Part shown: positions 5,175 through 63,935 of the stretch, piece by piece
How the letters are laid out: each line of letters opens with the position of its first letter
How positions within the stretch are numbered: position 1 is the stretch's first letter
DNA from: Candidatus Uhrbacteria bacterium
GTDB lineage: Bacteria > Patescibacteriota > Patescibacteriia > UBA9934 > GWF2-40-263
DNA: 64,000 bases
Assembly (NCBI GenBank): GCA_016188425.1
Contig: JACPHX010000009.1
Coordinates: forward strand, 3,582-67,581
Direction: 5' to 3'
The notes under the pieces: generated by a model
What the model was told of the DNA's origin: nothing
The model's input: the letters and a program-made list of their open reading frames with translations, nothing else
The model's database searches: none
Program-made: the position numbers and the translations under genes

Positions 5175-5180
5175 AGCATC

Positions 5181-5834
5181 TTAGTCGGTCAATTCGCTCA
5201 AGGCCTTAGTGTCCTCCGTGCCATAGAGGGTTTGGACATGGTGGGAGAGCGTGGCCATCAAGAGGGCGCCAAACATGAGGGCGCCGAATATCCCCGCCTC
5301 CAAGAGCGCCGGCACACCGGTGATCGTGGCGAAGGCAAAGGCAGAAATACCATTCTCAATCGTGAGGAAGCCGATAATCTGGGAGAGGACGTCACGACGG
5401 AAGATTAAAAGAAGCATGCCAACAAAGAAAACCTCTACAGAAAGAAGTATTGCCTGGTTGGAAACCGCGTGTTGGACGAATGGCCAATGGGAAACCGCAG
5501 CTGCCAGCCCAAGCACCATGACTAACGCAAGCAACAAAGATGTGGTTGGTCGAACACTTGTTTGGAGGCGCTCTAGTGCATGGCTCTTGCGCACGGATCG
5601 TGACAGAATCCACGGGACGAAGGCGACCTTCACCAGCACGGTGAGCGCCGCGACCGCCCAAAAATGTATCTCCCCACCTTGCCAAGCTAACACCGCGGCG
5701 TACACCGCCAGCATCAGCGAGGCAAACGCGTACAACCTAAGGATACTTCGTAACCGTAGCGTCACGATGCACATGAGCGAGGCGAGTAGGCAAAGCCCAA
5801 GGGCTATGAACTGGATCGCAACAGGAGAAATCAT
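5181..5834 (-). CDS. Small membrane subunit, HyfE/NuoK-like
   Basis: 217 aa and fully hydrophobic. Its size and position between the NuoH-like and NuoM-like genes match hydrogenase-4 component E. Confidence 0.55.
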   Translation of the reverse strand: MISPVAIQFIALGLCLLASLMCIVTLRLRSILRLYAFASLMLAVYAAVLAWQGGEIHFWAVAALTVLVKVAFVPWILSRSVRKSHALERLQTSVRPTTSLLLALVMVLGLAAAVSHWPFVQHAVSNQAILLSVEVFFVGMLLLIFRRDVLSQIIGFLTIENGISAFAFATITGVPALLEAGIFGALMFGALLMATLSHHVQTLYGTEDTKALSELTD

Positions 5835-32700: not shown

Positions 32701-34174
32701 TGGCTCCGTCGCCGCATCCTACGCGGGCGCCATCGATGACGAACGCGCATGTTCCGCCGTTGGGGCAATAATCGTAGCCACCATCCGGGACATAACAGAC
32801 CGAATCAGGAAAATCTCCGCCGACGCATTTTCCAGCTTCTAACTGGCAATGGCTGGAGCAGCCGTCGCCATCCGTCTGGTTGCCGTCATCGCATGCCTCG
32901 TAGCCGTCTCCGGATACCGCGCCGTCCCCGCACAGGCCGTTCTCTACCACGGAACCACGACGGACGTATCCCGCCTTGAGGGTGCAGTTATCGGAACAAT
33001 AGGCGGACGGATCCTCTACCACAACGCATTGCTCGGTTGGCGCTGCCATCGGACAATCTGCATCGGAGGCACATGCCTGTCCGGCATTCAGCCCCGCATC
33101 GCACAGCGAAACATCATGGTCGTAGACACACTGTTCGCCGCTGGTGCCGCAAAAATCTCCAGATTCATTCGTACAATCCATCCCCGCATTCGCTCCTGAA
33201 TCGCATAGATAGATTTCATCCTGGAAACAATTGGCGGTGGCCGGGCTTGCGCAATCGGCATCTGTCGTACATGTTCCCCCCGCATTCGATCCTGAATCGC
33301 ACTCCTTTACCGCCGCCGTCGGATCGCACTGTTCGCCAGAAAAGAACGTGTAAAAACCGTCTCCGCAAAACCGGCCGCACGAGGCCGCGGAGCCACCGGA
33401 ATCGCATCCGCCGCCAATCCCATCTTGCCCATCGCACTCTTCGCCATATTCAATCAGACCGTTGCCGCAGGTTGCGTTGTCGCACGATCCCCGTATGTCG
33501 TCTGTCAAATAAACGTTCGTATTGAAATTGCCCGTTTCACGGGCGACGACCACCGCTTTTTTGTCATCGATAAGGTCTATCTGCGATGGATCCGAACATC
33601 CCGGCTGCTCGCAGACAGAACCCTTATTGTAATAATGCGCTCCACCGTCGGACGTATAGGAAATCCGATCTCCGCTTAGCACGGCGCCGACGCTCTCATC
33701 AAAAAAAGCCAAATCCGTCGCGTTGGACGGCGCACTTACCTCGGCATCAAACGCCTCGTTCCCGTTGTTGGCTCCCGTGCCATTTATCTGAACCCACGCT
33801 CCCGAAAGGTCTTTTTTCGCCACGCCGTTTTGCGTGAGAGCCACCACCGACGAGGTCGTATCCGTCCGCTCAATGCTTATTACAAAATCTCCCGCGATCG
33901 AATCGTCCACCCAGCTCGCGCCCCCATCAACCGTCTTTGCCACGGATCCGAAATCCCCTTTCAGGTAACAGGTTTGATCCGAACTGCACGTAATCTGTTC
34001 GACGTCGGTGAGCAAATAGTCCGCACTCACCGGCTGCCAGTAGTTCGTCGCGAAGCTTTTTATCGAGTACCTATACACGTACGAGGCGGTTGCAGCCACC
34101 CCCACCAAAACCGCGACCATGGATAGGAACACGATGGGCTTTGAAAGCGTTTTCTTTTTCATAAGTAGAAACAT
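26747..34174 (-). CDS. Giant (2475 aa) anchored extracellular protein with Cys-rich repeats, BNR/Asp-box repeats, about 13 thrombospondin type-3 repeats and a C-terminal TM anchor
   Basis: N-terminal signal anchor [26 protein letters not shown]. Multiple CGDG…EECDDGN…GDGCS..C..E units (Myxococcus cysteine-rich-repeat type). TxDGGxxW BNR motifs. [29 protein letters not shown] repeated 13 times. A carboxypeptidase-regulatory-like segment. C-terminus [30 protein letters not shown], a TM helix plus basic tail with no LPXTG. Confidence 0.85.
27790..28900. repeat. Tandem array of about 81-nt DNA repeats (13 units) encoding the TSP3 calcium-binding repeats
   Basis: Near-identical units such as gggacattggtcgacgtcatccaggactccgtcgccgtcggtatccggaatcgggcatccattgttggaggcgggaccggg recur throughout. 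All three alternative frames on both strands also yield repetitive ORFs in the track. Confidence 0.85.
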
Positions 34175-52609: not shown

Positions 52610-53101
52610 CTATTTTAAATAACTTTCCCCTCTCACATAGTGGCACGTATACCCTCCCGGATTCTTCTGCAGGTAATCCTGATGGTACCCCTCGGCCACA
52701 TGGAACTCCTCCAATGGTTCCAGCAACGTCGCCACTGGATGTTTCCATCGACCGGACCTATTCACCCTTTCAATGAAGTTCTCCGCCTCTTTCTTTTCCT
52801 CATCATTCCCATAAAAGATCGAGGAGCGATACGACGTGCCGACATCGTTCCCCTGCCGGTTCCGCGTCGTCGGGTCGTGGATGCGGAAAAAGAAGTCGAG
52901 GATGGCACGGTACGTCGTCTTTCCTGGATCGTATTCAATCTGGATCGCCTCGGCGTGGCCTGGATGGTTTTCGTAAGTCGGATCCGCATTTTCTCCGCCG
53001 GCATAGCCGACCTCGGTATTCACGACGCCGGGCAGCGCGCGGAACAACTCCTCCATTCCCCAGAAACATCCGCCGGAAAGCACGGCTTTTTTTGTGGCCA
53101 T
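52610..53101 (-). CDS. msrA: Peptide methionine sulfoxide reductase A
   Basis: 163 aa with the GCFWG active site ([12 protein letters not shown]) and conserved MsrA blocks. Confidence 0.95.
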
Positions 53102-53189: not shown

Positions 53190-53217
53190 TCACAAACCGC
53201 CCCCTTGCGAGGGCGGT
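53190..53217. terminator. Stable hairpin between the giant surface-protein gene and msrA (putative terminator/attenuator)
   Basis: 10-bp perfect stem caaaccgccc/gggcggtttg with an 8-nt loop. No clear U-run on the minus strand. Confidence 0.35.
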
Positions 53218-53229
53218 TTGCAGGGAATC

Positions 53230-56200
53230 CTAGAGGCCGAAAATCGTCTCTATCTGCGCCCGAAGCTGCGGGCCGTTCTGCGATCCTTGGATCATGCCGA
53301 CAAGGCGGTGATCCGCATCGAGGAAGTAGAATTGCGGCAAGCTCATCACGCGATACGCATCGTAGAAATCGTCGCCGACCTTGTAGACCGGGAGCGAATA
53401 GGAGCCGCGGCGCACCTGGGACCAGCTGACATTGATAGGATCCAGGGTGCTGACGGGCAACAGGACGATGTCCGGGTACTGGTCGATCAGGTCTGCGAAC
53501 GCCGTCATCTGCTCCATGGAGAGCGTATTCCAGGCGCTGTAGGCCATCACGACGGATCTCTTGCCGGCGGCCGCGCTATACAGCGAGCGCGTCTCGCGGT
53601 CCACGGATGTCAAAGAAATATCGGGCATCTGCGTTCCAAGAGGAATCGCGACTTGCGATTCTGCGGCCGCCACATTGAGCGCGAAGTTGTCCGGCGCCTG
53701 GATCAGGCCGAAACGGGAGAACAGGTTGTGCCAGAATCCTTGATTTGATTCCATGACGATATCTGCCGTCACGACGCTTCGAGTCGGTATCGTGGTGATC
53801 GAAGAGGTGATGGTGCGGTGGCCAGCATGGGAAACCTCCAGATAGAACTCTCCGGGAGGAAGCACGAGCGAGAAATTCCCGCTGACAAGGAAAGGATTCA
53901 TTTGTCCGTAGGATGCCCCGTTCCAGATGTCGAATGAACCGTCGTTCCCGCGCTCATACGCCGTCACGGTCACATCGGAAATGAATTCCTTCGTCTGTTC
54001 ATCCGAAATGGTTCCGTCGGTAATAACCAGGACGCCGTTGATCGGCCGCTGGTAATCCCGGACGCCGTTTGAGAAGCTCGCGGTGAGCTCATGCATTCCG
54101 GTTTCTTCGAAGGAGATGTCTCCGACCCATAGGTGCAGGTCGCGGTCGAAGGTGAGGGGGAACTCCCGCCGTTCGGAGGCGCCGATAATCATGGCCTCCG
54201 TCGCTCCAGGTGTCCCCTCCAAGAAAATCGTCCCGCCTTCCCCCTCCTGCAGATGAACCGTCCCATCGCCATCCAGCGGAGAAGCCTGCGCACCCAGCGT
54301 CGTAATTTCGTTTGCCCCTATGATAAGGCCGGCATCAAGGGTGAAAGGACAAGCACTGGAAGTGGTAATCGTCCCATCGATATCAACCGCGCGGACGAGC
54401 GCCGAGTAGAAGCCGGAGGGGATCGTTGTGAAGGTCAGGTTGTATCCTCCCGCGTCGGTGCCAAGACCGAAGACGGTTGGAACAGGGATCCAGCTTAACC
54501 CGCCGTTGAGCGAATAATCGACGGTGGAAATATTGCCTGCCGACGCGTTCACAAACCCTCCGATCGTGATAGGCAAGGCGTCATACACCGTAAAACACCC
54601 GAAGGTCCAGTCGATCGCGGTGGGGGTTGGGGGCGGTGGCGGTTCCGGGGCTGCAAGGAAAGCGAACGGAACGATCAGAGGTTCAATCGGCGGCTGTTCT
54701 GGTATGGGCGGGGGTGGGGGCTGTTCTCCTCCTCCGCCTCCTCCTCCGCCTCCTCCGCCTCCTCCTCCTCCGCCATCACCTCCGCCTCCGCCTCCTCGGC
54801 GCCGTACTTGAATGGTGACGGTGGCCGTATCGCAGAGATCATTGGTATCGCAGATTTGGTAGACAAAGGTGTCATCGCCGACAAAGCCGTTGTTTGGCGT
54901 GTAGGTAATCACTCCGGTCTCTTCATCGATAGCGGTAATCGTGCCGTTGCCGGGAGGGGTGATAATCGTGATGGAACCAAGAACCAATTCCCCATCGACT
55001 CCCTCATCGTTCGCCGGCACATCTATATCGACCGGCGTATTGCGATTCGTGACGGCCGAATCGTCGTTGGCCACCGGAGGAGCAAGCTCTCCGACGGTGA
55101 TCGTCACCACCGCGGTGTCGCACAGCCCGTCATCGTCGCACACTTCGTAGGTAAACGTGTCGGTGCCGGTGAACCCTTCTCCCGGCGTATAGGTCGCGAC
55201 GCCCGTTTCCGGATCGATGGTTACCTCTCCGTTGGTGGGAGGATCCGTGACCGTCACGGTCGAAGGGACAAGGAGCCCGTCAAGATCCGAGTCGTTCTCC
55301 AAAAGATCGATCTCGACGGGGACGTCGACGGTGGTGCTTGCTCCGTCATCGCCCGCGATGGGCGGAGCGAGGACGGTAATGGTCACCAAGGCCTGGTCGC
55401 ACAAATCGGTGGTATCGCAGACCTCGTAGACAAAGGTGTCTACGCCGTAGAATCCTTCATCCGGCGTGTAGGTGACGGCGCCTGTTTCCGGATCGACTGA
55501 TACTTCCCCGTCGGTGGGTGGCGTCACGATCGCTACCGAGGCCGGGTCGAGATTCCCGTCTTCATCGGTGTCATTGTCCAAGATGTCGATCACCACCTGG
55601 GTATCCATGGTGGTCGTGGCTGCATCGTCGTTGGCAACCGGCGGATTTTCTTCCGGCGTAAACACGCAGTCCTCCGGCGTGATCTCTTCATCGCCATTCA
55701 AATCCGTAATCGGGATGATGTCTCCCTCGTGGTTGCCGTGGTCGTTGTTTCCTTCCCCGTCAACCGCGCTCGCGTCAACCGTCAGCACGGTGAAGGGGTT
55801 GTTTTCTGATCCGGTGGCGTGACAAATGGTGACCTGGTCATCGCCCCCCAGGACGAGAATCGTTACCTCCGCGGTATCGCATAGGGTATCGGTATCGCAA
55901 ATCTGGTAGACAAAGGAATCGGAGCCGATGAAATCCACATCCGGATCATAGGTAATTTCCCCGGAGACGGGGTTGATGCTGACGATGGACCCGTTGCTCG
56001 GCGGCGTGATGATGGTGACAGATGCAAGATCCAGGTTTCCATCGGGATCCGTGTCGTTCTCCGGCACGTCAACCGCCACCGGCTGGTTCACCATGGTGAA
56101 GGTCGAGTCATCGACGGCGACCGGCGGCTGGTTCTCTTCGGGCGGGATATAGACACAATCGTCCTCATCGACCACCTCGTCGCCATTCAAATCGGCAATA

Positions 56201-57972
56201 GGGATAATATCCCCCTCATGGTTGCCGTGGTCGTTGTTTCCTATGCCATCCACCGCGCTCGCGTCAACGGTGAGCACGGTGTAGGGATTTTGTTCCGAGC
56301 CGGTGGCGTGACAAATGGTCACGTTGTCCTCGCCTCCAAGAACCAGAATCGAGACTTCGGCCGTATCACAGAGGGAATCCGTGTCGCAAATCTGGTAGAC
56401 GAATGCGTCGGAGCCGATAAAGTCCGTGTCTGGCGTATAGGTGGCCTCACCTGTTTCTGGGTTCACTGATACCCCTCCATTGGAGGGAGGGGTGATAATC
56501 GTGACGGATGCCAAATCCAAATTCCCGTCAAAATCCGTATCGTTGCCTGGAACGTCGATATCGACGGGGGTATTCACGAAACTAAACGCTGCATTGTCGA
56601 CGGCATCGGGCGGTTGGTTCCCCTGGGGCGGAACGTAGACGCAGTCGTCCGCATCGATATTTTCATCGCCGTCCAAATCTGTAATGGGAATAATGTCCCC
56701 TTCGTGGTTGGCGTGGTCGTTGTTGCCTTCGCCATCCACCGCGCTTGCGTCAACGGTAATGACGGTGTACGGGTTGCTTTGGGATCCGGTCGCGTGGCAA
56801 ATAGTCACTTTGTCATCCGATCCCAATACATCGATGGTAACGGTCGCCGTGTCACAGGCGCCGTCTTGGTCGCACACCTCATAGGTAAAGGAATCAGATC
56901 CCACAAAATCCGCGGCCGGGGCATAGGTAATTTCCCCCGTGGCTTCATTGATATTCGTAATGATGCCGTTGGTGGGAGGAACCGTAATGGCTACCGAACC
57001 GGCATCCAGCTCCCCTTCCGGATCCACGTCGTTGTCAAGGATATCGATGACGACCGGCGTATTGACCGCCGTAGCAGCCGCGTCGTCATTGGCAGTTGGC
57101 GGCAGGTTCTCATCCGGAACATAGGTGCAATCTTCCTCGGTAATGTCTCCGTCGCCATTGGCATCGCCAATCGGAATGATGTCCCCAAAGGCATGCTGCT
57201 CGTCGACGATATGCTGGGTATGGTCGTTGTTCCCCTCGCCGTCGACCGCATCCGCATCAACTGTTATGACGACGTACGGATTCGCGTCGGAGTTCGTCCG
57301 ATGGCAGATGGTTACCTGGGGGTCTTCCTCTTGGTGGTTGGCAGCGACCAAAAACGATTGGGTTGCCAAGGCATCGAAACGGCTGGTCTGCACCCGCGTT
57401 TCCTGCGCCGTTTGCTGGGTAATCCGTCCTTTAGACAGCATGGCGATGGATGTCAGCGTTGGAATGCTTCGCGGTCCGCTGGTAAGGGACAGGCGCAGCT
57501 TGATGCTGTCGCTGGCAAGCGGGAGGCTGCCGATATGCGCATTGACTTCCTCTACTTTATTCCAGCAAGTGGAACAATTGTTTGCTTGCGTCCACTTCAG
57601 CCCGTCGTACCAGTACCAATAGGTAAAGTCTGAGGTCAGCTGGTACCCGATGGATGACCCGGCTCCCACAGAGGCCTGTTGGGCAAACCCGACGAGCGAT
57701 GCTTCTTCCGGCAGCCGGAGGTCTTCTAAGTAGACGACCTCTTCTGTGGCGTTATTGCGAACCGGGCGCACACCATCGCTGTCCATGACGACGCTCGTTA
57801 CATCGTAGGAGAAATGGCTTGGCTCGGTTGTTTTGACGGTAAAGGCACGCGCCCCTATCTCGCTGCCGCTGCGCGTTAAGAGGAAGACGGAGATGCCCAG
57901 CACCGCAAGGAACCCCGCCAGGAGCTTGAGGCCAGCGCCCCCTTGCGATTTTCGTGGAGAATATGACGTCAT
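53230..57972 (-). CDS. Giant (1580 aa) surface protein: four [Cys/His module + cadherin-like/VCBS-type beta-sandwich] units, two extra cadherin-like domains, a poly-Gly/poly-Pro linker and a C-terminal Cys-less thioredoxin-fold domain
   Basis: N-terminal signal anchor. VTICHATGSxxNPYTV.TVDASAVDGEGNNDH.NHEGDIIPI modules repeat 4 times. Cadherin-like units A.DD…NTPV.IDVL.ND.D.DG.L…GSDSFVY.VCDT…CDTA.VTI repeat 6 times. Then G22…P5…P5 and a C-terminus …SLPQFYFLDADHRLVGMIQG. Confidence 0.85.
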   Translation of the reverse strand: MTSYSPRKSQGGAGLKLLAGFLAVLGISVFLLTRSGSEIGARAFTVKTTEPSHFSYDVTSVVMDSDGVRPVRNNATEEVVYLEDLRLPEEASLVGFAQQASVGAGSSIGYQLTSDFTYWYWYDGLKWTQANNCSTCWNKVEEVNAHIGSLPLASDSIKLRLSLTSGPRSIPTLTSIAMLSKGRITQQTAQETRVQTSRFDALATQSFLVAANHQEEDPQVTICHRTNSDANPYVVITVDADAVDGEGNNDHTQHIVDEQHAFGDIIPIGDANGDGDITEEDCTYVPDENLPPTANDDAAATAVNTPVVIDILDNDVDPEGELDAGSVAITVPPTNGIITNINEATGEITYAPAADFVGSDSFTYEVCDQDGACDTATVTIDVLGSDDKVTICHATGSQSNPYTVITVDASAVDGEGNNDHANHEGDIIPITDLDGDENIDADDCVYVPPQGNQPPDAVDNAAFSFVNTPVDIDVPGNDTDFDGNLDLASVTIITPPSNGGVSVNPETGEATYTPDTDFIGSDAFVYQICDTDSLCDTAEVSILVLGGEDNVTICHATGSEQNPYTVLTVDASAVDGIGNNDHGNHEGDIIPIADLNGDEVVDEDDCVYIPPEENQPPVAVDDSTFTMVNQPVAVDVPENDTDPDGNLDLASVTIITPPSNGSIVSINPVSGEITYDPDVDFIGSDSFVYQICDTDTLCDTAEVTILVLGGDDQVTICHATGSENNPFTVLTVDASAVDGEGNNDHGNHEGDIIPITDLNGDEEITPEDCVFTPEENPPVANDDAATTTMDTQVVIDILDNDTDEDGNLDPASVAIVTPPTDGEVSVDPETGAVTYTPDEGFYGVDTFVYEVCDTTDLCDQALVTITVLAPPIAGDDGASTTVDVPVEIDLLENDSDLDGLLVPSTVTVTDPPTNGEVTIDPETGVATYTPGEGFTGTDTFTYEVCDDDGLCDTAVVTITVGELAPPVANDDSAVTNRNTPVDIDVPANDEGVDGELVLGSITIITPPGNGTITAIDEETGVITYTPNNGFVGDDTFVYQICDTNDLCDTATVTIQVRRRGGGGGGDGGGGGGGGGGGGGGGGEQPPPPPIPEQPPIEPLIVPFAFLAAPEPPPPPTPTAIDWTFGCFTVYDALPITIGGFVNASAGNISTVDYSLNGGLSWIPVPTVFGLGTDAGGYNLTFTTIPSGFYSALVRAVDIDGTITTSSACPFTLDAGLIIGANEITTLGAQASPLDGDGTVHLQEGEGGTIFLEGTPGATEAMIIGASERREFPLTFDRDLHLWVGDISFEETGMHELTASFSNGVRDYQRPINGVLVITDGTISDEQTKEFISDVTVTAYERGNDGSFDIWNGASYGQMNPFLVSGNFSLVLPPGEFYLEVSHAGHRTITSSITTIPTRSVVTADIVMESNQGFWHNLFSRFGLIQAPDNFALNVAAAESQVAIPLGTQMPDISLTSVDRETRSLYSAAAGKRSVVMAYSAWNTLSMEQMTAFADLIDQYPDIVLLPVSTLDPINVSWSQVRRGSYSLPVYKVGDDFYDAYRVMSLPQFYFLDADHRLVGMIQGSQNGPQLRAQIETIFGL

Positions 57973-57984
57973 AGGTGGTGGGGA

Positions 57985-59328
57985 TCAGGAAGGCATTTTA
58001 CGGAAGTTGCGAATGGCCGAGTACCCCACGAAGGACACCAGAAGAGAGATGAGGGTCAGGATGATGAAGGTTGAAAGAAGCTGCTGGCGGGTCTGTTCGA
58101 ACAAGACGGTGGTTGGAGACCCGACGGAAACCATGCCGATGATTTTGCCATTGATATCGCGCAACGGCACGAACGCGCTGTAATAAAGCGTTCCGAGCCG
58201 ATCAAGACTCGTGCTTAAAACCTCTCCTTTTGCCAAGGTGGTTTCCAAGACGCGCAAATCCGTTTCCTGGCTTCCGACCCAACGAGAGACGCCGTCGGTC
58301 GTGGTAATGGTCGTTGCCGATCGTCGATCGTCGGTGTAAATGGTGGTTTCAAGCCCGGTTGCCTTTTTGGAGAAGTCCACGAAGGCCGTGTCGAACTTGT
58401 ATCCGACTTCAACCGCCCCCACCGCATTCGTCCCCGAGAGAATCGGGGCAAACGCGTGCGTGACCACCAAGGGCGAAAGCACGCCCGCTTCCTTGTCGAA
58501 CGACTTGATGTGTTTCTTTTCCTTCAAAACGTAGGTCACAAGCGGATCGACGTTTGCCACGCGCCCGCGATCGCGGATATCGGAGGGAGAGACGATGATT
58601 TCGCCGTAGGAATTGTAGATTTTGAGGATATCCACGCCAGAACTTAAAAAGAAATCGCTCATGAGCTGATCCAGCACCTTCACCTGGCCTCCTTTGAAGG
58701 CCTCGAGGAAACGGCTGTCATTGGCAATCGTACGCGCCAGGATGAGAGAGGTGTTCTCGCGATCGAGCATCACCACTTGCTGGGTCTCGGACCCTTGCTC
58801 CATCAGCCGCAAGTTATTGCTTTCGACAATGCGGAAGACCAGCATGGAAAAAATGAACGAACCGAGCGTGGAGACAACGATGGCGATAGTGAGGAAGACG
58901 ACATAGGTACGCAGGAAGGGACGAAGTTTGATGAAGTTCCATGCCCAGATCGCCAGGAAGAGAAACCCGATGAAACTAAATAAGACCCCCCACTGCCAGG
59001 CCGGGCTGAATCCAAGCGACTGTTCGCGCAAGGGAACGAGGGAGAGAGCGGGAAGGCGGGAAACGATCAAACTGATGCTGTAGCCCAGCAAAGAGAGATA
59101 TCCGAGCATCGGCCAAAGGTTTTGGCGCTTGGAAGCCGGATTGTCGCGCTGGCTGCGATAGCGTCGGATCTGGATGCGGATCGTGGCAAGGATGAAGAGG
59201 GTCGACATGCCCGCGAGGATGGAAGGGACGAACCCCTTGGCACTGGGCCAGGCAATGACGAGGACCGCGGCGAGGAGGGCGTAGATGGTGATCTCCAGCC
59301 CGGAAAAAGAGCGTGATTCTTTTTGCAT
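57985..59328 (-). CDS. Membrane protein with an extracytoplasmic double-Cache-like sensor domain and no recognisable output domain
   Basis: About 5 N-terminal TM helices. A 250-aa extracellular region has Cache-like modules (…LSPLVVTHAFAPILSGTNAVGAVEVGY…; …LYYSAFVPLRDINGKIIGMVSVGSP…). A final TM helix follows, then the stop. Confidence 0.6.
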   Translation of the reverse strand: MQKESRSFSGLEITIYALLAAVLVIAWPSAKGFVPSILAGMSTLFILATIRIQIRRYRSQRDNPASKRQNLWPMLGYLSLLGYSISLIVSRLPALSLVPLREQSLGFSPAWQWGVLFSFIGFLFLAIWAWNFIKLRPFLRTYVVFLTIAIVVSTLGSFIFSMLVFRIVESNNLRLMEQGSETQQVVMLDRENTSLILARTIANDSRFLEAFKGGQVKVLDQLMSDFFLSSGVDILKIYNSYGEIIVSPSDIRDRGRVANVDPLVTYVLKEKKHIKSFDKEAGVLSPLVVTHAFAPILSGTNAVGAVEVGYKFDTAFVDFSKKATGLETTIYTDDRRSATTITTTDGVSRWVGSQETDLRVLETTLAKGEVLSTSLDRLGTLYYSAFVPLRDINGKIIGMVSVGSPTTVLFEQTRQQLLSTFIILTLISLLVSFVGYSAIRNFRKMPS

Positions 59329-59337
59329 ACGTCCGAA

Positions 59338-59637
59338 TTATTCGTTTGTCCGTTGGAGATGAATAAGACTTGGCTCTGCGAGAACGCCCTTGTAGATGCT
59401 AAAAAACCCGAACAGCTGCACCGCCAGCGCGGGCAGGCCGAGTCCGGGGTATTTCCTCTCCAGAATAAAAAGGAAAAACGCAAACGCGAGCGAAAAGAAC
59501 CCTATGATACGCCACACCGTCTTTAACTGCTTCTCATACTTATAGGTGGTGAGAAACAGCGACGCGGACGATACACAGACAAGGACGGCGAACACGGCCA
59601 TGACATAGTGCGTGAACTCGAGCCAAAAAATATACAT
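59338..59637 (-). CDS. Small (99 aa) three-TM membrane protein, hypothetical
   Basis: Hydrophobic ORF tightly packed between two surface-module genes. Confidence 0.4.
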   Translation of the reverse strand: MYIFWLEFTHYVMAVFAVLVCVSSASLFLTTYKYEKQLKTVWRIIGFFSLAFAFFLFILERKYPGLGLPALAVQLFGFFSIYKGVLAEPSLIHLQRTNE

Positions 59638-59698
59638 AGATTACATTCAGTATACCACTTTACGGCACGTGAGCATGTGGATAATGGTGACGAAGGGG

Positions 59699-61585
59699 TT
59701 ATTTTTCCGCGCGGAGCTTTACGTTTTTCGCAAACGTCTGCGCTTCTTTCGCCGCTTTGAGGTCCGCCTCCAGCCGCTCTTCCTTGTAGCCGTCCTTCTG
59801 ATAGGAGATCGAGTAGCAATTGGGGCCCAGGAGGAAGAAGTAGCGCCCCAGGGAGTCGGTGAGCGTGGTCTCCAGCACTTTGTTGTACTCCGTCTCAAAT
59901 ATGCGCACGACGGCGCGATCGATCGTTTGTCCGGAAGCCGCATCGCTCACGCGCCCCCAGTTCTTGGGCTTCTTCAGATGCGCCAAACGCCGCGCGAGCA
60001 TGAGGGCGACGAGCTGAAGCGCCAAGAGGCCGAAGGAGACGGCATCCGGACGCAATATGGCCACGCCGATCGCAAGCACGATACCGATGTAGGTAAGCAA
60101 AAACTCGAATTTCCTTAGGAGACGGCGGAACAGAATGGATGTAGGCTTGTGATAATTTTCATCCTGCGTCGGGTCCACGGGAATATTGGCGGCAATGGTC
60201 GTCCCCTTTGCCGGCACGCTCACGGCGCCACCGACGTAGATCGAGGAGAATTCGCCGTCCGCCTTTTTTCCTTTGAGGATGTTTGAGGGGAATGTGAATG
60301 GCGGTTTCATCACCTGCATGGTGTAGCGCCCCGGGAGGACGAGGAAGAAATATTTTCCGTCGCGCCCCGTGACGCGCGTTTGCGCCAGGCGTCCGTCTTC
60401 TTTAAACAGGCGAACGGTGGCGAGTTCGATGGGCAGCTTGCTGATCGCGTTATAAACCATGCCGATCCCCGTTGCTTTGCGCTTGCGGAGAAAACCGAAC
60501 GGGACTCCAAGCAGATAGCGGACGTACTTGATGAGGTCGAAGTACCGAAGCAGGATGATGAGACTCAAAATCGACGCAAGGAGTATCGTCCCTTTGGATG
60601 CCGCGACGATCGTGTCCCCTACCCCGGAAGCGAGCGCGTTTTTCAAAAAGCCCACCACGGATTCTCCCGTGAGCGAATCCATGAAGTTCGCCCAGCTCTC
60701 CAGGGTGGAGGAGGCGCCGGCGGGAAGCAAGGGGGGGGGAGGCGGGATGGAGGGTGGAGGGGAGGAGGGAGGAAGTGGGAGGGAGGAGGGCAACGAAGGG
60801 GAAGAAGGAGGGGGAGCGGAGGGGGAGGGGGCGGGAGGGGGCGGAGAGGAGGGGGCGGGAACGGGAGCGGGAACGGGGATTCCTGCGGTCGCAAAAGAAC
60901 TTTCGTAGCTCGCGCTATTTCCCCACTCATCCGCCGAGGTAGCCTTGTAGTAATACGTTGTGCCTGGATCCAGCCCGGACAGGTTTACGACATGGTTGGT
61001 ATCCGTCACGGCCGCAAGCTGCCACGAGGCCGTCGCGGCCTTCACCCCCCTCCCGCCTCCCATCCCGACGCTTCCATAGGCCCGGGTCGTGCCGTAATCA
61101 ACCCGCGTCGTGGCCGGTTCATCGGTGGTCCAATGGATGGTCGCGGAGCTCTGCGTCACGCTCCCGGCCTGCACATCGAAGAGCTTCGGCGCCACGGCAT
61201 CCGCCGTTTCGAATACTTTCGTCGCGACCGCCGTTTGCTGGCACGCATCGTAAACGGTCGCTTTGAGATAGATGAGGGTATCCTCCGGAAGATTCGTCAG
61301 AGAAAAAGAAAATCTCGTCGTGGGGTTCTCCTCTGACTCCATCCCGAGTTCATACCGCGTGGAAGTGCCGACCGCGAGCGTGGCTGTGGCGGACACGTTC
61401 GTCCGGAACGAAACCTGCGCGCTGTCGAGCGTGACTCCGGATACGCTGAAGGAGGAAATCGCCGGCGGATCTGGGCACGGATTCGTCCGTGGAGTGTCAT
61501 TGTCCGGCGGCGGAGCCACGAATGATTGGGCGCGAACAAACATCGGCTGCAGAAGGAAAAGAACGGCGCATAGGTACGCAAACAT
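59699..61585 (-). CDS. Membrane/surface protein with two Fn3-like (PAP-N-terminal-like) domains, a Pro/Ser-rich linker and two CarboxypepD_reg-like domains
   Basis: Start at ATG 61585 (signal peptide MFAYLCAVLFLLQPMFVRAQS). The track start is 61651. TIHWTTDEPATTRVDYGTTRAYG Fn3-like blocks. Linker PVPAPVPAPSSPPPPAPSPSAPPPSSPSLP…. …GRDGKYFFLVLPGRYT… and …SLGRYFFLLGPNCYSI… CarboxypepD_reg-like blocks, separated by TM helices. Confidence 0.6.
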   Translation of the reverse strand: MFAYLCAVLFLLQPMFVRAQSFVAPPPDNDTPRTNPCPDPPAISSFSVSGVTLDSAQVSFRTNVSATATLAVGTSTRYELGMESEENPTTRFSFSLTNLPEDTLIYLKATVYDACQQTAVATKVFETADAVAPKLFDVQAGSVTQSSATIHWTTDEPATTRVDYGTTRAYGSVGMGGGRGVKAATASWQLAAVTDTNHVVNLSGLDPGTTYYYKATSADEWGNSASYESSFATAGIPVPAPVPAPSSPPPPAPSPSAPPPSSPSLPSSLPLPPSSPPPSIPPPPPLLPAGASSTLESWANFMDSLTGESVVGFLKNALASGVGDTIVAASKGTILLASILSLIILLRYFDLIKYVRYLLGVPFGFLRKRKATGIGMVYNAISKLPIELATVRLFKEDGRLAQTRVTGRDGKYFFLVLPGRYTMQVMKPPFTFPSNILKGKKADGEFSSIYVGGAVSVPAKGTTIAANIPVDPTQDENYHKPTSILFRRLLRKFEFLLTYIGIVLAIGVAILRPDAVSFGLLALQLVALMLARRLAHLKKPKNWGRVSDAASGQTIDRAVVRIFETEYNKVLETTLTDSLGRYFFLLGPNCYSISYQKDGYKEERLEADLKAAKEAQTFAKNVKLRAEK

Positions 61586-61725
61586 TCTGAATAAACGTGA
61601 CGCCGGCTGACTCGCCAAAACCGATGGCTCCTCCATAGATAGATGGATCATGAGATGATGAGCTGACTATTGATGACAGTTTACCAACAATACGAGTCTG
61701 CGAAAAGAAACCGATTCGCCGCCTG

Positions 61726-63255
61726 CTACTCCCGCATCACCGGGATTCGATTCAAATCCGCATTGCTGATCCCCAGCCCCAGCGATCGCATGAGCGCGAA
61801 GGCATCCGCGGGGCGGCCGAGGTAGTATCGCAAACCATCGACAGGATTCACATACCACGCTTCCCCATGTTCCTCGACTTGTAGCAATATGCGGCCACGC
61901 AATCGGTTCACAAGAACAGGATCAATCGGTGCCATCGTCTGGTTGAGAGAATTCCCTCCGCTGATAGGGATCTTCGACAGATCTCGATTCGTAATCCCCA
62001 ACCCTTGTTCGCGCATGAGCGCAAATGCGTCATCCGGTCGGCCAAGATACCGGCGTGCCTGCACGACCGGATCCAGCCACCACGCTTCCCCATGCTCTTC
62101 ATCCTGGAGCAGGATTCGACCATTCAGACGACGTATCAGCATCGGATCGCTTCCGACAAACCGCGCGCGCTCGCGCGCGTACACGTCCTCCACCCCCGTC
62201 TCTCCCCCTCCTCCACTCTCCCCTCCCTCCGCATTGATCCTCGATCTCCCTCTCGTCGAGAGATTCCACGCGGTCGGGAAATTCCGTGCAATGTAATTCA
62301 GCTGCGAGAGTTCCCGTTCATTCGCCTGCGTCCCCCGTTCAAGGACAAGAACGTATCCGACCGAAAAATCGCGCAGCGCCGCCGGGTAGGCGGGCTCCCG
62401 CGGCGCGAGCGTCGAGACAAGGTCGTCTCCCGTAAGCGCCACCATCGTCCCCTGCACCGTCTCTCGTTCTCCTCCCTCGCTGCCCGCTGCCAGCTGCCCG
62501 CTGCCAGCTCCCCCATCAACCTTGATAAAATGCATCGGCTGGATCTCGCTCTTCCCCGCAAAGCCCATCAGGTACATCTCAAACCAGTTGAACCGCTGAT
62601 AATCACTCCCCTGCTCCCCGTCGGCACTGTCATTGATGAACGTGCGGTCCCCGACATATCTCCAGGGATTCCCGCCAATGGGGCTGAGGTAAAGTTTGTC
62701 GTTCTCGCGGGTAGACGTGTCGAAAAAATCAGACCAATGCGCGCCGTCGCGCTGGAGATTGATGCCCGGATCTCTCGCCACGCCGGCGGGGTAGGCCAGC
62801 CAGTAGTGGCTTGTTTCATGGACGATGTCGCCGATCGTCGGCGGGAGAAACTCGGAGCCGGGAGGCGCGATGTCGTGGAAGACCATCACGCCAAGGAGCC
62901 GGCCCGCGCTTCCGTACTCCTCTCCCAGATCGATGGGCGTATCTCCATCGCTGCGCAGGCCGCGGATATCGGTGCGCACGGGAAGCTCGTAATCGTAGGG
63001 AGCGCCCTTCTCTGGAAAATTGGTGTAGATCGCGAGGAAGTCGTACGCATCGGCATGCGACTCGTAGAATTTCTTCGCGACGCGCATGGGGTCGACGGAG
63101 CCATCCTGGGAGCGCAACGTGCCGTCGTCGGTCAGGAGGTAGGCATGGGGAGGGAGAAGGGCGGCAGCCTGCGCGGTCCGTGTGGTAACGAGCGGAATCA
63201 CGAGCGCGAAACACAGGGACACGACACAAAAAAGAGTGCGCACGTTCATGGTCAT
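61726..63255 (-). CDS. Secreted putative HExxH zinc metallopeptidase with two C-terminal ~55-aa repeats of unknown family
   Basis: Signal peptide MTMNVRTLFCVVSLCFALVIPLVTTRTAQA. HExxH present as IVHETSHYW. Repeats: RLNGRILLQDEEHGEAWWLDPVVQARRYLGRPDDAFALMREQGLGITNRDLSKIP and RLRGRILLQVEEHGEAWYVNPVDGLRYYLGRPADAFALMRSLGLGISNADLNRIP. The antisense 529-aa ORF is R-rich junk. Confidence 0.55.
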   Translation of the reverse strand: MTMNVRTLFCVVSLCFALVIPLVTTRTAQAAALLPPHAYLLTDDGTLRSQDGSVDPMRVAKKFYESHADAYDFLAIYTNFPEKGAPYDYELPVRTDIRGLRSDGDTPIDLGEEYGSAGRLLGVMVFHDIAPPGSEFLPPTIGDIVHETSHYWLAYPAGVARDPGINLQRDGAHWSDFFDTSTRENDKLYLSPIGGNPWRYVGDRTFINDSADGEQGSDYQRFNWFEMYLMGFAGKSEIQPMHFIKVDGGAGSGQLAAGSEGGERETVQGTMVALTGDDLVSTLAPREPAYPAALRDFSVGYVLVLERGTQANERELSQLNYIARNFPTAWNLSTRGRSRINAEGGESGGGGETGVEDVYARERARFVGSDPMLIRRLNGRILLQDEEHGEAWWLDPVVQARRYLGRPDDAFALMREQGLGITNRDLSKIPISGGNSLNQTMAPIDPVLVNRLRGRILLQVEEHGEAWYVNPVDGLRYYLGRPADAFALMRSLGLGISNADLNRIPVMRE

Positions 63256-63430
63256 ATGCGTAAATTTATCATGAAGCGCCGCATCGAGCTATGTCGCGGG
63301 CCAGCGTATCGGGAGGTTTGGGTGGTATACTGTCCCCAGTATGCCAAACGCCCGCCACCACCAGCATCCTCCCAAGCGCGAGCATGTCCTGCGCGAGGCC
63401 TTCCCCTCCAGGGACCGATTGAAATACGGT

Positions 63431-63676
63431 ATGGATCGCCTCGTCTACCTCGCCGGTTTCGTGCTCCCGCTCATGACGATTCCTCAATTGACGACCCTCT
63501 ACATCCATCGCGACAGCACCTCCCTCTCCGCCGTCACCTGGGTGACGTATTTCCTCGGCTCCTGCTTCTGGTTCTTCTACGGGATCGTCCATAAGGAGCG
63601 TCCGATCATCTTTATCAACATGATGCTGGCGATCGTGCAGGGACTGATCGTGGTGGGAATTTTCTTGTTCAGGTAG
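63431..63676 (+). CDS. SemiSWEET (PQ-loop / MtN3-like) sugar transporter
   Basis: 81 aa from ATG 63431, three TM helices, and a conserved PQ motif (LPLMTIPQLTTLY). The ORF track starts at 63341. Confidence 0.55.
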   Translation: MDRLVYLAGFVLPLMTIPQLTTLYIHRDSTSLSAVTWVTYFLGSCFWFFYGIVHKERPIIFINMMLAIVQGLIVVGIFLFR

Positions 63677-63779
63677 AGAGATGGTCTCTGGCACCGCCGC
63701 GGAACCCCAACGCGAATCGCCATCAAAAATCACCAGGTGTTTCCTGGTGATTTTCCGGCTCGACCTGCGGGGATCCGTC

Positions 63780-63935
63780 CTATGCTTGCTCGTGGGTCTC
63801 CGGAGACTTCAAACAGCAATCAATCGCCTTTTTTCCAGAACCACAGGGACACATCTCATCCATACCATGGCATTGGACATACATCTTTCCCGACCCGCAC
63901 GAACAAGATGCTTTAAGTTCATCGATCGTCTTCAT
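63780..63935 (-). CDS. Small SEC-C motif (metal-binding) protein
   Basis: 51 aa, too short to appear in the ORF track: MKTIDELKASCSCGSGKMYVQCHGMDEMCPCGSGKKAIDCCLKSPETHEQA*. It carries two CxCGSGKK-type SEC-C motifs. Confidence 0.5.
   Translation of the reverse strand: MKTIDELKASCSCGSGKMYVQCHGMDEMCPCGSGKKAIDCCLKSPETHEQA

What the first reader, a model, noticed from the sequence alone, without database searches (positions are those of the whole stretch)
53230..63255. Ten-kb minus-strand 'surface module' of five tightly packed genes
- **Gene order (63255 down to 53230):** secreted HExxH protein with novel repeats; Fn3/CarboxypepD_reg membrane protein; 99-aa membrane protein; Cache-sensor membrane protein; 1580-aa cadherin-like protein.
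- **Spacing:** intergenic gaps are 74 nt, 61 nt, 9 nt and 12 nt, all co-directional. That is consistent with one or two transcription units.
- **Possible function:** combining a protease, a sensor, accessory membrane proteins and a giant calcium-type adhesin resembles an attachment and remodelling apparatus. It could serve host or partner-cell binding, or biofilm-matrix interaction.
- **Novelty:** none of the components is individually assignable to a characterised system. This makes the module a candidate undescribed surface system.
Basis: inference. Interest (0 to 1): 0.55.

Follow-up and report, generated by a model that had tools for sequence, protein, structure and literature searches.

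The report
Cache membrane protein paired with giant fibril
The five ORFs are real, but only the last three (two ancestral genes: a sensor-like Cache membrane protein, split here, and a giant surface fibril protein) form a cassette that recurs across Patescibacteria and that I found no description of; the protease-like and Fn3 genes are only local neighbours.

Summary
The five minus-strand ORFs, their coordinates and the 74/61/9/12-nt gaps are exact. The window comes from a Candidatus Uhrbacteria (Patescibacteria/CPR) genome.

The five-gene "module" is not conserved. In 34 non-redundant relatives, no homologue of the HExxH protein or of the 650-aa Fn3/CarboxypepD_reg protein lies within 10 kb.

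A smaller core is conserved:
- **One split gene.** The 99-aa ORF and the 447-aa Cache ORF are in the same frame, separated by one TAA. They are fused (549-618 aa) in 30 of 34 relatives.
- **Tight pairing.** In 29 of 30 testable relatives, a giant follows this roughly 9-TM dCache protein at -47 to +37 nt. The Cache protein has no output domain.
- **Giant architecture.** It has an N-terminal anchor, a conserved N-domain, a variable Ca-type stalk and a conserved ~460-aa C-terminal head. The head ends in a cysteine-less ResA/TlpA-like thioredoxin fold.
- **Sister family.** A distant Cache family (~27% identity) keeps the pairing with a short head-only protein, in inverted order.

The "novel" 55-aa repeats are a widespread Patescibacteria module. 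Best reading: a surface fibril or adhesin with a dedicated membrane partner. The mechanism is inferred, not shown.

The parts
57985..59328 (-). Cache membrane protein, C-terminal piece (447 aa): about five TM helices, an extracytoplasmic dCache domain and a C-terminal TM helix. It has no cytoplasmic output domain.
   Evidence: Pfam sCache_3_3 at 67 bits and dCache_3 at 53.7 bits, both above cut-off. AF2 model pLDDT 85. Foldseek matches to dCache ligand-binding domains of MkcA, PctD, TlpA, DctB, KinD and LuxQ, E 8e-9 to 1e-5. Hydropathy. 92 homologue clusters besides itself, those that carry a name almost all Patescibacteria.
58111..58767 (-). dCache ectodomain (residues 188-406).
59338..59637 (-). 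99-aa ORF. It is the split-off N-terminal module (about three TM helices) of the Cache protein.
   Evidence: It aligns to residues 1-99 of the fused homologues P0122, P0125, P0126 and P0163. tblastn finds it directly upstream of the Cache part in every relative. It is fused in 30 of 34 non-redundant relatives.
59338..59340 (-). In-frame TAA that splits the ancestral Cache gene. The downstream piece restarts at ATG 59328, 9 nt later.
   Evidence: The same split is present in an independent Logan assembly and in the NCBI annotation MBI2551153/54.
53230..57972 (-). Giant surface protein (1580 aa).
   Evidence: A homologous giant lies immediately downstream of the Cache gene in 29 of 30 testable relatives.
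57874..57924 (-). N-terminal signal-anchor TM helix of the giant (residues 17-33).
   Evidence: Hydropathy. No AxA-type cleavage site is seen (inference).
57403..57861 (-). Conserved membrane-proximal N-domain (residues 38-190) with an invariant Cys pair (C133, C136).
   Evidence: Alignment of 30 giants. No Pfam hit and no PDB sequence hit. Cys spacing is x2 in most and x3 in three.
54805..57321 (-). Variable stalk: four ~60-aa Cys-flanked 'TICH' modules with DxDGD-type loops, alternating with six Big_9/cadherin-like repeats in all.
   Evidence: Stalk composition differs among relatives: Big_9, DUF4215 or TICH modules in varying numbers.
54622..54804 (-). Gly-run and Pro-rich hinge (residues 1057-1117).
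   Evidence: Similar G/P runs precede the head in several relatives.
53233..54621 (-). Conserved C-terminal head (residues 1118-1580): an Ig-like domain, an unassigned domain, a CarboxypepD_reg-like domain and a thioredoxin fold.
   Evidence: Alignment A3 has 39 invariant columns. Pfam CarboxypepD_reg in 9 of 12 members and AhpC-TSA in 7 of 12. The head is also found in short sister-family proteins, E 4e-30 to 2e-32.
53233..53685 (-). Cysteine-less ResA/TlpA-like thioredoxin-fold domain. The WCxxC motif is replaced by WNTLS; the SLP cis-proline loop is kept.
   Evidence: Profile versus PDB: 5um7 at 1.6e-9, ResA 4nmu at 3e-7, pneumococcal Trx-family proteins 2yp6 and 4hqz at 2e-5. The printed alignment places WnT opposite WCxxC.
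53192..53221 (-). 13-bp GC-rich hairpin starting 9 nt after the giant's stop codon. It is the probable end of the transcription unit.
   Evidence: RNA fold -26.7 kcal/mol, z -4.2, 0 of 200 shuffles fold as well. There is no classical U-run.
59649..59657 (-). TGGTATACT, an extended -10-like element 11 nt upstream of the 99-aa ORF start. It is a possible internal promoter for the conserved cassette.
   Evidence: Read directly. The consensus scan did not call it. Weak evidence.
59699..61651 (-). 650-aa Fn3/CarboxypepD_reg membrane protein. It is a lineage-specific neighbour, not part of the conserved cassette.
   Evidence: Pfam and four hydrophobic segments. No homologue near any relative's cassette. 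Not homologous to the sister-family head proteins.
61726..63255 (-). 509-aa protein with an N-terminal signal-like segment, an uncharacterised ~300-aa HExxH domain and two 55-aa repeats. It is a lineage-specific neighbour.
62230..63153 (-). HExxH domain (residues 35-342; motif at 62806-62820).
   Evidence: 1,546 cluster representatives at E<=1e-3. HExxHxW...H[WFY] in 120 of 149 hits; E147, H150 and W152 invariant, H173 in 35 of 36. AF2 pLDDT 83. No PDB match by sequence or Foldseek.
61729..62109 (-). Two 55-60-aa repeats: a widespread modular domain, mostly from Patescibacteria, that is not in Pfam.
   Evidence: 1,477 hits that cover only about 26% of the query. They are attached to CAP, PF09992, PF13529, TSP3 and other domains. 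No Pfam hit at E<10.

Best explanation
**What it is.** The 10-kb run is probably one transcription unit in this Candidatus Uhrbacteria genome. It is made of two lineage-specific envelope genes placed in front of a conserved Patescibacteria cassette.

**The cassette has two ancestral genes.**
1. A roughly nine-TM membrane protein carries an extracytoplasmic dCache domain and has no cytoplasmic output domain. Here an in-frame TAA in its variable cytoplasmic linker splits it into 99-aa and 447-aa pieces.
2. A giant follows, tightly or translationally coupled. It is anchored at its N-terminus. It has a conserved membrane-proximal N-domain, a variable calcium-type stalk of Big_9/cadherin-like repeats and Cys-flanked modules, and a Gly/Pro hinge. 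Its conserved ~460-aa head ends in a redox-dead ResA/TlpA-like thioredoxin fold.

**Proposed mechanism (inferred).**
- The giant is a fibrillar surface protein that holds its head some tens of nanometres from the membrane.
- The cysteine-less thioredoxin pocket, with its cis-proline loop intact, acts as a binding site rather than a catalytic one.
- The Cache protein is the giant's cognate membrane partner. It binds or senses the head or the anchored base, and it transmits through the long helices that connect the Cache domain to its TM bundle.

**The two upstream genes.** The HExxH protein and the 650-aa protein are not part of this machine. The HExxH protein is more likely a cell-wall-directed metallohydrolase, targeted by its 55-aa repeats.
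For: **Shown**
- ORFs and gaps are as reported.
- The 99-aa and 447-aa ORFs are co-linear with single 549-618-aa proteins in relatives.
- There are 34 non-redundant relatives.
- In 29 of 30 with enough downstream sequence, the Cache gene is followed at -47 to +37 nt by a giant with a homologous N-domain. Wherever the giant is complete and at least 1,200 aa, the homologous head is also present.
- All-against-all clustering of flanking ORFs finds no other recurrent neighbour.
- Two cassettes in one genome are each other's nearest relatives for Cache, head and N-domain, which indicates duplication as a unit.
- In the sister Cache family (~27% identity, same TM architecture), 3 of 4 loci have a 721-739-aa head-only protein 2-9 nt upstream of the Cache gene. 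Head homology there is E 4e-30 to 2e-32.
- The dCache fold is supported, and no output domain was found.
- Thioredoxin-fold homology, with both cysteines replaced in all 12 aligned heads and in the 3 sister-family proteins, comes.
- A hairpin follows the giant's stop codon.

**Inferred**
- Adhesin or fibril role, from the stalk domains and the single N-terminal hydrophobic segment.
- Physical partnership, from the invariant adjacency that survives an order inversion.
Against: - There is no expression, localisation or binding data.
- The Cache protein has no recognisable output, so how a signal would be used is unknown.
- The head could be structural, or could bind the cell's own wall, rather than a foreign ligand.
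- One relative (L040) has a different N-domain on the downstream protein.
- One sister-family locus (L060) lacks the head partner and sits beside histidine-kinase and response-regulator genes.
- The family was recovered as only 93 clusters at 90% identity, so it is not universal in the phylum.
- The in-frame stop could mean decay of the gene in this genome.
- The distance-matrix correlation (r = 0.40) has no phylogenetic control.
Confidence: 0.5

Rival explanations
1. One reading: a five-gene attachment and remodelling apparatus. The secreted HExxH protease processes or releases the giant adhesin under control of the Cache sensor, with the 650-aa and 99-aa proteins as accessories. This would be a Lap-like logic.
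For: - All five ORFs are co-directional with gaps of 74 nt or less.
- No convincing terminator lies between them, and a hairpin appears only after the giant.
- All five proteins have hydrophobic segments consistent with envelope or secreted proteins.
Against: - No homologue of the HExxH domain or the 650-aa protein was found within 10 kb of the Cache-giant cassette in 34 non-redundant relatives.
- HExxH relatives carry PG_binding_1 or sit beside an Amidase_3/PG_binding_1 gene, which points to the cell wall rather than the adhesin.
- The 55-aa repeats are a generic module on many unrelated secreted enzymes.
- The 99-aa ORF is part of the Cache gene, not an accessory protein.
Confidence: 0.07
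2. The adjacency reflects co-regulation only. The Cache protein is an accessory or co-sensor that signals through its TM helices to a separate histidine kinase or another membrane protein. The giant is simply a co-expressed surface protein with no physical link.
For: - Sister-family Cache genes lie next to response-regulator or histidine-kinase genes in 3 of 4 loci.
- The Cache protein has the long signalling helices typical of sensors.
- LuxQ-like and WalK-like sensors are among its structural matches.
Against: - No kinase or regulator gene recurs near the main-family cassette.
- Coupling at -47 to +37 nt in 29 of 30 relatives, and retention of the head partner after an order inversion, are stronger than expected for co-regulation alone.
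Confidence: 0.15
3. The giant is a structural envelope component (a spacer, a wall or S-layer tether, or a head-to-tail lattice) rather than an adhesin. The Cache protein is its membrane anchor or assembly factor and does no sensing.
For: - Both ends of the giant are conserved while the middle varies, as expected if both ends dock onto fixed cellular partners.
- The N-domain has an invariant Cys pair, and the C-terminal domain is a Cys-less relative of proteins that bind CxxC substrates.
- One Cache homologue is fused to an SLH wall-binding domain (P0185).
Against: - Stalk length varies roughly 2.5-fold among relatives (1,243-3,149 aa), which is unusual for a fixed-spacing structural element.
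- The most conserved Cache motifs are polar and cluster in and next to the membrane-proximal module (residues 313-352), which is compatible with a conserved binding site.
Confidence: 0.2
4. There is no system at all: the ORFs are unrelated envelope genes that happen to be neighbours, and the split Cache gene is a decaying pseudogene.
For: - An in-frame stop interrupts the Cache gene.
- The two upstream genes are indeed unrelated neighbours.
- The giant's exact sequence is absent from the protein collection, although its four neighbours are present.
Against: - Pairing is conserved in 29 of 30 relatives and in the sister family.
- The split lies in the variable linker, is followed by an ATG 9 nt later, and recurs independently in 4 of 34 relatives.
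- Both pieces keep the conserved residues of the family.
Confidence: 0.05

Closest known systems
LapA/LapD/LapG regulated giant adhesin of Pseudomonas (own knowledge of the system)
   Same: A giant repeat-rich, calcium-type surface protein is encoded beside a membrane protein with a periplasmic sensor-like domain.
   Different: - No T1SS genes or RTX signal were found.
- There is no LapG-type cysteine protease and no GGDEF/EAL/HAMP receptor.
- The giant here has a single N-terminal hydrophobic segment, probably a TM anchor.
- The protease-like neighbour is not conserved with the adhesin.
LuxP-LuxQ and WalK-YycH/YycI: sensors whose extracytoplasmic Cache/PAS-like domain reads a partner protein rather than a small molecule (own knowledge)
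   Same: - The ectodomain has the double Cache/PAS-like fold, and LuxQ and a WalK-YycH model are among the Foldseek matches.
- A dedicated partner protein is encoded next to it.
   Different: - There is no kinase or any other cytoplasmic output domain.
- The TM region is much larger: eight TM helices in the full-length protein besides the C-terminal one.
- The partner is a membrane-anchored giant rather than a soluble binding protein.
Fibrillar adhesins (anchor, stalk of repeated Ig-like domains, adhesive tip), e.g. RTX ice-binding adhesin or CshA (own knowledge)
   Same: - The stalk is built of Big_9, Cadherin_4/5, CshA-type and tandem-95 repeats.
- The layout is anchor at one end and a distinct conserved module at the other.
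- Stalk length varies among relatives.
   Different: - The anchor is an N-terminal TM helix, not LPXTG or an outer-membrane plug.
- The tip is a Cys-less thioredoxin fold preceded by Ig, unassigned and prealbumin-like domains. I do not know this combination as an adhesive tip.
- Pairing with a Cache membrane protein is obligatory.
Extracytoplasmic TlpA/ResA/StoA/Etrx thiol-disulfide oxidoreductases
   Same: Sequence-level homology of the last ~140 residues (E 1.6e-9 to 1e-3). The cis-proline loop is conserved.
   Different: - Both catalytic cysteines are replaced (WNTLS here; WNT..QEQ consensus) in all 12 aligned heads, so redox activity is excluded.
- The domain sits at the end of a 1,200-3,100-aa protein rather than on a short lipoprotein or membrane anchor.
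Saccharibacteria surface adhesins found essential by Tn-seq (PMC10633639)
   Same: They are large surface proteins of Patescibacteria with glycan-binding or Ig-like domains, proposed to mediate host attachment.
   Different: That paper does not mention a Cache domain or a thioredoxin domain. The domains it names are VCBS, dockerin and Fn3. No homology between those proteins and this cassette was tested here.

Membership tests
Cache superfamily (dCache_3 / sCache_3_3) | Profile match above the curated cut-off. | tested here: met
   sCache_3_3 at 67 bits (cut-off 28.8); dCache_3 at 53.7 bits (cut-off 25.7).
Cache superfamily (dCache_3 / sCache_3_3) | Extracytoplasmic fold: a long helix plus two PAS-like modules, flanked by TM helices. 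| tested here: met
   AF2 model pLDDT 85 with helix 137-203 running into the domain and helix 406-443 leaving it. Foldseek E 8e-9 to 1e-5 to solved dCache ligand-binding domains.
Signal transducers built on Cache (histidine kinase, MCP, GGDEF/EAL, STYK) | A cytoplasmic output domain (HisKA/HATPase, MCPsignal, GGDEF, etc.). | tested here: not met
   No such Pfam or NCBIfam domain at E<=0.1. The protein ends 8 residues after the last TM helix.
Fibrillar adhesin | A stalk of tandem Ig-like or cadherin-like repeats. | tested here: met
   Six Big_9/Cadherin_5/Cadherin_4 stretches; tandem-95 repeat at 5e-76.
Fibrillar adhesin | A cell-surface anchor. | tested here: inconclusive
   There is a single N-terminal hydrophobic helix at residues 14-33 and no LPXTG or other sorting signal. 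Whether it is cleaved was not determined.
Fibrillar adhesin | An adhesive tip domain with demonstrated binding. | not testable with these tools
   The head is conserved, but its ligand is unknown.
Lap-type regulated adhesin system | A dedicated protease and a c-di-GMP receptor co-conserved with the adhesin. | tested here: not met
   No GGDEF, EAL or LapG-like domains. The HExxH gene is absent next to the cassette in all 34 relatives.
TlpA/ResA-like thioredoxin family | Thioredoxin-fold sequence homology. | tested here: met
   Profile A3 versus PDB: 5um7 at 1.6e-9 and ResA 4nmu at 3e-7. AhpC-TSA at 25.4 bits against a cut-off of 26, just below Pfam threshold.
TlpA/ResA-like thioredoxin family | A catalytic CxxC motif. 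| tested here: not met
   WNTLS stands in place of WCxxC, and no Cys occurs at this position in any of the 12 aligned heads. The giant has no Cys after residue 1208.
Zincin metallopeptidases (for the 509-aa protein) | An HExxH motif with a conserved third ligand. | tested here: inconclusive
   HETSH at 146-150. E147 and H150 are invariant, H146 occurs in 29 of 36 and H173 in 35 of 36. Metal binding is not testable here.
Zincin metallopeptidases (for the 509-aa protein) | Assignment to a described peptidase family or fold. | tested here: not met
Single operon of five ORFs | Co-directional genes, short gaps and no internal terminator. | tested here: inconclusive
   The gaps are 74 nt or less, and the only strong hairpin follows the giant. 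However, an extended -10-like TGGTATACT lies before the 99-aa ORF, and the consensus scans are at background level. RNA data are needed.

The most novel reading that the evidence does not exclude
The Cache membrane protein and the head-bearing protein may form a previously undescribed Patescibacteria-specific surface sensing and attachment device.
- A cysteine-less thioredoxin-fold tip, displayed on a stalk whose length varies among lineages, captures a ligand on a host or partner cell. That ligand may be a CxxC-type or peptide motif.
- Engagement is read by an output-less nine-TM Cache protein whose TM bundle is itself the effector (a gate, a transporter regulator or a partner of another membrane protein).
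- This would be a signalling architecture with no cytoplasmic domain.
Probability: 0.2. Interest if true: 0.8.

Novelty: new variant of a known kind. Interest (0 to 1): 0.5.

Why it matters
How Patescibacteria recognise and hold on to host cells is largely unknown beyond type IV pili and a few adhesins in cultivated Saccharibacteria (PMC10633639, PMC11665869).

- **A specific candidate.** A two-gene cassette recurs in lineages labelled Uhrbacteria, Kerfeldbacteria, Dojkabacteria, Buchananbacteria and others. It pairs a sensor-like membrane protein with a giant fibril carrying a conserved tip. That makes it a concrete, testable candidate for a surface-interaction device.
- **Unannotated sequence modules defined here:**
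  - the giant's N-domain;
  - the head, with its redox-dead thioredoxin fold;
  - the 'TICH' stalk module;
  - the 55-aa repeat;
  - an HExxH domain family with more than 1,500 clusters.
- **A method point.** Tight spacing alone over-called a five-gene system. Synteny reduced it to two ancestral genes.

Tried and rejected
- **Third homologue search.** A concatenated N-domain plus head query returned nothing. The giant's exact sequence is not in that collection. Giants were therefore taken from fetched loci instead.
- **PDB profile searches.** The HExxH domain and the giant's N-domain gave nothing usable.
- **Pfam at E<10.** The N-domain, the TICH module, the unassigned head domain and the 55-aa repeat gave nothing.
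- **Is the 650-aa protein related to the sister-family upstream proteins?** Rejected. Those proteins are instead homologues of the giant's head. The L060 694-aa protein is neither.
- **Is MsrA (52610-53101) functionally tied to the Trx-like head?** It is absent from nearly all relatives' loci; the only hit is on the other strand, about 2.6 kb upstream of the cassette in L032/L033. A hairpin also separates it from the giant. I treat the adjacency as coincidence.
- **Promoter and terminator consensus scan.** Counts were at or below shuffle expectation, so it was uninformative.
- **Literature.** Eight text queries found no description of this pairing.
- **Rfam and tRNA scans of the window.** Both were empty.

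Full report
**1. The observation**

The region holds exactly the five minus-strand ORFs described:

| Coordinates | Length |
|---|---|
| 61726-63255 | 509 aa |
| 59699-61651 | 650 aa |
| 59338-59637 | 99 aa |
| 57985-59328 | 447 aa |
| 53230-57972 | 1580 aa |

The gaps are 74, 61, 9 and 12 nt. The domain calls also hold:
- The giant has six Big_9/Cadherin_5/Cadherin_4 stretches (Big_9 E 2.5e-104).
- The 447-aa protein matches sCache_3_3 and dCache_3 above cut-off.
- The 650-aa protein has two CarboxypepD_reg stretches and an Fn3-like Pur_ac_phosph_N domain.
- The 509-aa protein has an N-terminal hydrophobic signal-like segment, HETSH at 146-150 and two C-terminal repeats, but no Pfam or NCBIfam family.

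Exact matches to NCBI proteins MBI2551153-56 identify the source as a Candidatus Uhrbacteria (Patescibacteria) MAG.

**2. Five ORFs, four ancestral genes**

The 99-aa and 447-aa ORFs are in the same frame, separated by one TAA and 9 nt. Homologues such as P0122, P0125, P0126 and P0163 (554-578 aa) are single proteins. Their first ~95 residues align with the 99-aa ORF and the rest aligns with the Cache ORF.

Among 34 non-redundant relatives, 30 have the fused gene (549-618 aa) and 4 have it in two pieces. The break here lies in the variable, lysine-rich linker, which I place in the cytoplasm from the charge pattern of the loops. It is reproduced in an independent assembly. I read it as a tolerated gene fission, though decay cannot be excluded.

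**3. The conservation test**

I collected loci encoding relatives of the Cache protein from three sources:
- species-representative genomes;
- metagenomes;
- contigs carrying database homologues.

I then searched all loci with every component by tblastn, mapped the ORFs and clustered all flanking ORFs.

- **The core is conserved.** In 29 of 30 non-redundant loci that extend past the Cache gene, the next gene starts -47 to +37 nt from its stop and encodes a giant with a homologous N-domain.
- **Giant size and head.** Apparently full-length complete giants are 1,243-3,149 aa. Three shorter stop-terminated ORFs (281-879 aa) look truncated. Eleven of the twelve complete giants of at least 1,200 aa carry the full homologous C-terminal head; the twelfth (L023) stops short of its CarboxypepD_reg and thioredoxin domains.
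- **The one exception (L040).** It still encodes an anchored DUF4215-repeat protein there, with an unrelated N-domain.
- **The upstream genes are not conserved.** No locus has a homologue of the HExxH domain or of the 650-aa protein, and no other gene recurs.
- **Duplication as a unit.** One genome has two cassettes that are each other's closest relatives in all three parts.

**4. Deeper support from a sister family**

Weak hits to the Cache protein (P0206-P0212, ~27% identity) have the same N-terminal TM module, TM bundle, dCache domain and C-terminal TM helix.

In three of four loci examined, the gene 2-9 nt upstream encodes a 721-739-aa protein. Its C-terminal ~450 residues are homologous to the giant's head (E 4e-30 to 2e-32). 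They include a thioredoxin-like end without cysteines. These proteins lack the stalk and the N-domain.

The Cache-head association therefore survives both deep divergence and an inversion of gene order. This is the strongest argument that the two proteins work together, and that the head is the essential partner. The fourth locus (L060) lacks it. Three of the four sister loci have two-component genes nearby.

**5. Anatomy of the giant**

| Residues | Feature |
|---|---|
| 1-16 | Short basic N-terminal segment (read as cytoplasmic) |
| 17-33 | Single hydrophobic helix |
| 38-190 | Conserved N-domain with invariant G30, W82, W90 and a Cys pair (alignment numbering) |
| 218-1056 | Stalk |
| 1057-1117 | Gly-run and Pro-rich hinge |
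| 1118-1580 | Head |

- **N-domain.** The Cys pair has C-x2-C spacing in most relatives and C-x3-C in three. The domain has no Pfam or PDB sequence match.
- **Stalk.** Four ~60-aa Cys-flanked 'TICH' modules (TICHxTGSxxNPY...NNDHxxHxGDIIPIxDxNGD...DC) alternate with Big_9/cadherin-like repeats. Stalk composition and length vary widely among relatives.
- **Head.** It comprises an Ig-like domain with a Cys pair, an unassigned domain (LIFGANQF...LKLWxG...REIN), a CarboxypepD_reg/prealbumin-like domain and a C-terminal thioredoxin fold.
- **Thioredoxin fold.** A profile of 12 heads matches extracytoplasmic thiol-disulfide oxidoreductases: 5um7 at 1.6e-9, ResA at 3e-7 and two pneumococcal thioredoxin-family proteins (2yp6, 4hqz) at 2e-5. 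The printed alignment places WNT(L)A/S opposite WCxxC. Both cysteines are absent in every member, while the SLP cis-proline loop, RGxY and EQ are invariant. It is a conserved pocket without redox chemistry.
- **Reach (inference).** From the usual ~4 nm per Ig-like domain (own knowledge), the stalk here would place the head some tens of nanometres from the membrane.

**6. Anatomy of the Cache protein**

- An AF2 model (pLDDT 85) shows a 67-residue helix running from the last N-terminal TM helix into the ectodomain. It also shows two PAS-like modules and a 38-residue exit helix that forms the final TM segment.
- Foldseek matches dCache ligand-binding domains of chemoreceptors and kinases, including LuxQ. 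Nothing matches the TM bundle.
- The protein ends eight residues after the last TM helix, and no output domain is detectable.
- Many invariant residues lie near helix ends that I assign to the cytoplasmic side (Q53, R56, N70, R136, R140), or in and next to the membrane-proximal Cache module (FDxAFVDFSK, RSATTI, DGVSRWxGS).

**7. The two upstream genes**

- **HExxH domain.** It belongs to a large uncharacterised family: 1,546 cluster representatives at E<=1e-3. Some sit at the N-terminus of 5,000-6,500-aa proteins. The family shares HExxHxW...H[WFY] in 120 of 149 hits, plus invariant Y228, M230 and G231. A confident model (pLDDT 83) has no PDB neighbour by Foldseek.
- **Cell-wall association.** The closest relative replaces the 55-aa repeats with PG_binding_1. 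Another sits beside an Amidase_3/PG_binding_1 gene. Two of 36 aligned members carry PG_binding_1.
- **55-aa repeats.** They occur in at least 1,477 clusters behind CAP, PF09992, PF13529, TSP3 and other secreted domains. I infer a cell-wall-directed metallohydrolase with a generic targeting module that is common in Patescibacteria.
- **650-aa protein.** It has a signal-like segment, two Fn3-like domains, a proline-rich linker and two CarboxypepD_reg domains separated by TM segments. Its function was not resolved.

**8. Transcription**

- The HExxH gene is preceded by an 85-nt region that diverges from a probable plus-strand membrane-protein ORF at 63341-63676.
- No convincing terminator lies between the five ORFs.
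- A 13-bp GC-rich hairpin (-26.7 kcal/mol, z -4.2) starts 9 nt after the giant's stop codon, ahead of msrA.
- TGGTATACT lies 11 nt before the 99-aa ORF. In relatives the cassette is usually preceded by AT-rich non-coding DNA.

Co-transcription of all five ORFs is plausible here, but the cassette may also have its own start. RNA data are needed.

**9. Explanation and comparison**

Best supported: a conserved Patescibacteria cassette that encodes a fibrillar surface protein and its dedicated Cache-domain membrane partner. The pairing and the architectures are shown. Adhesion, ligand capture by the Cys-less thioredoxin pocket and signalling through the TM bundle are inferred.

It resembles fibrillar adhesins in layout, LuxPQ-type partner-reading sensors in logic, and ResA/TlpA proteins in one fold. 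It fails the defining features of Lap systems, of kinase or MCP transducers, and of catalytic thioredoxins (see the membership table).

Text searches of the paper library found no description of this pairing.

I rate it a new variant of a known kind, of moderate interest. The five-gene 'system' as originally proposed is not supported.

Noticed in passing
window 61729-62109 (-): The 55-aa repeat (GRILLQVEEHGEAWYVNPxDGxRYYLGRPxDAFxLMRxLGLGIxNxDLxxIP) is a widespread module, where names are given mostly from Patescibacteria. It is found in at least 1,477 protein clusters behind many different secreted domains (CAP, PF09992, PF13529, TSP3, trypsin-like). It has no Pfam model and may be a wall-targeting domain.
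   Followed up: partly
window 62230-63153 (-): The HExxH domain belongs to an uncurated family of at least 1,546 cluster representatives. Dozens of these are 5,000-6,500-aa proteins that carry the domain at their N-terminus. A confident AF2 model has no Foldseek neighbour in the PDB.
   Followed up: partly
window 55657-57315 (-), giant residues 220-772: Four copies of a ~60-aa Cys-flanked 'TICH' module (TICHxTGSxxNPY...NNDHxxHxGDIIPIxDxNGDxxIxxxDC) have no Pfam match. The module also occurs between DUF4215 repeats in the Kerfeldbacteria giant (L005), and a looser motif scan finds it in giants of several other relatives.
   Followed up: partly
window 52610-53101 (-): A methionine sulfoxide reductase A gene lies directly downstream of the giant, whose last domain is a Cys-less relative of the thioredoxins that recycle Msr enzymes. 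It is separated from the giant by a strong hairpin and is not conserved next to the cassette, so the adjacency is probably coincidence.
   Followed up: yes
window 2098-8760 (-): A fused Complex1_30kDa/49kDa/NiFe-hydrogenase large-subunit-like gene sits beside two Proton_antipo_M (Mrp/Nuo-type) membrane subunit genes. This looks like a group-4 membrane-bound hydrogenase-like or Mrp-like module, which I believe is uncommon in Patescibacteria.
   Followed up: no
window 26747-34174 (-) and 20769-23654 (-): The same window holds a second giant (2,475 aa; TSP_3, DUF4215 and BNR-like repeats) and a 961-aa SpaA_2 prealbumin-fold protein. The genome invests heavily in large surface proteins.
   Followed up: no
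L003 and L010/L028 (contig JAKLDG010000001.1, about 240 kb apart): One Patescibacteria genome carries two complete Cache-giant cassettes (giants of 2,888 and 1,310 aa). They are each other's closest relatives in the Cache, N-domain and head parts.
   Followed up: yes
L060, L062, L063 (sister-family loci): Sister-family Cache genes lie next to response-regulator and histidine-kinase genes in three of four loci. This hints that the output-less Cache proteins could feed into two-component systems.
   Followed up: partly
window 53230-57972 (-): The giant's exact protein sequence is not in the 15-billion-protein collection, although its four upstream neighbours are. It may be uncalled, called with another start, or flagged as a pseudogene in the public record. 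It contains a 24-residue stretch that is glycine except for one Asp.
   Followed up: no
window 63800-63934 (-) and 63720-63755: A small Cys-rich ORF (CSCGSGK...CPCGSGKK) is followed by a perfect hairpin with a T-run, which looks like a bidirectional terminator. This lies upstream of the region studied.
   Followed up: no
P0185: One Cache-family homologue (761 aa, on a short contig) also carries an SLH (PF00395) wall-binding domain hit.
   Followed up: no
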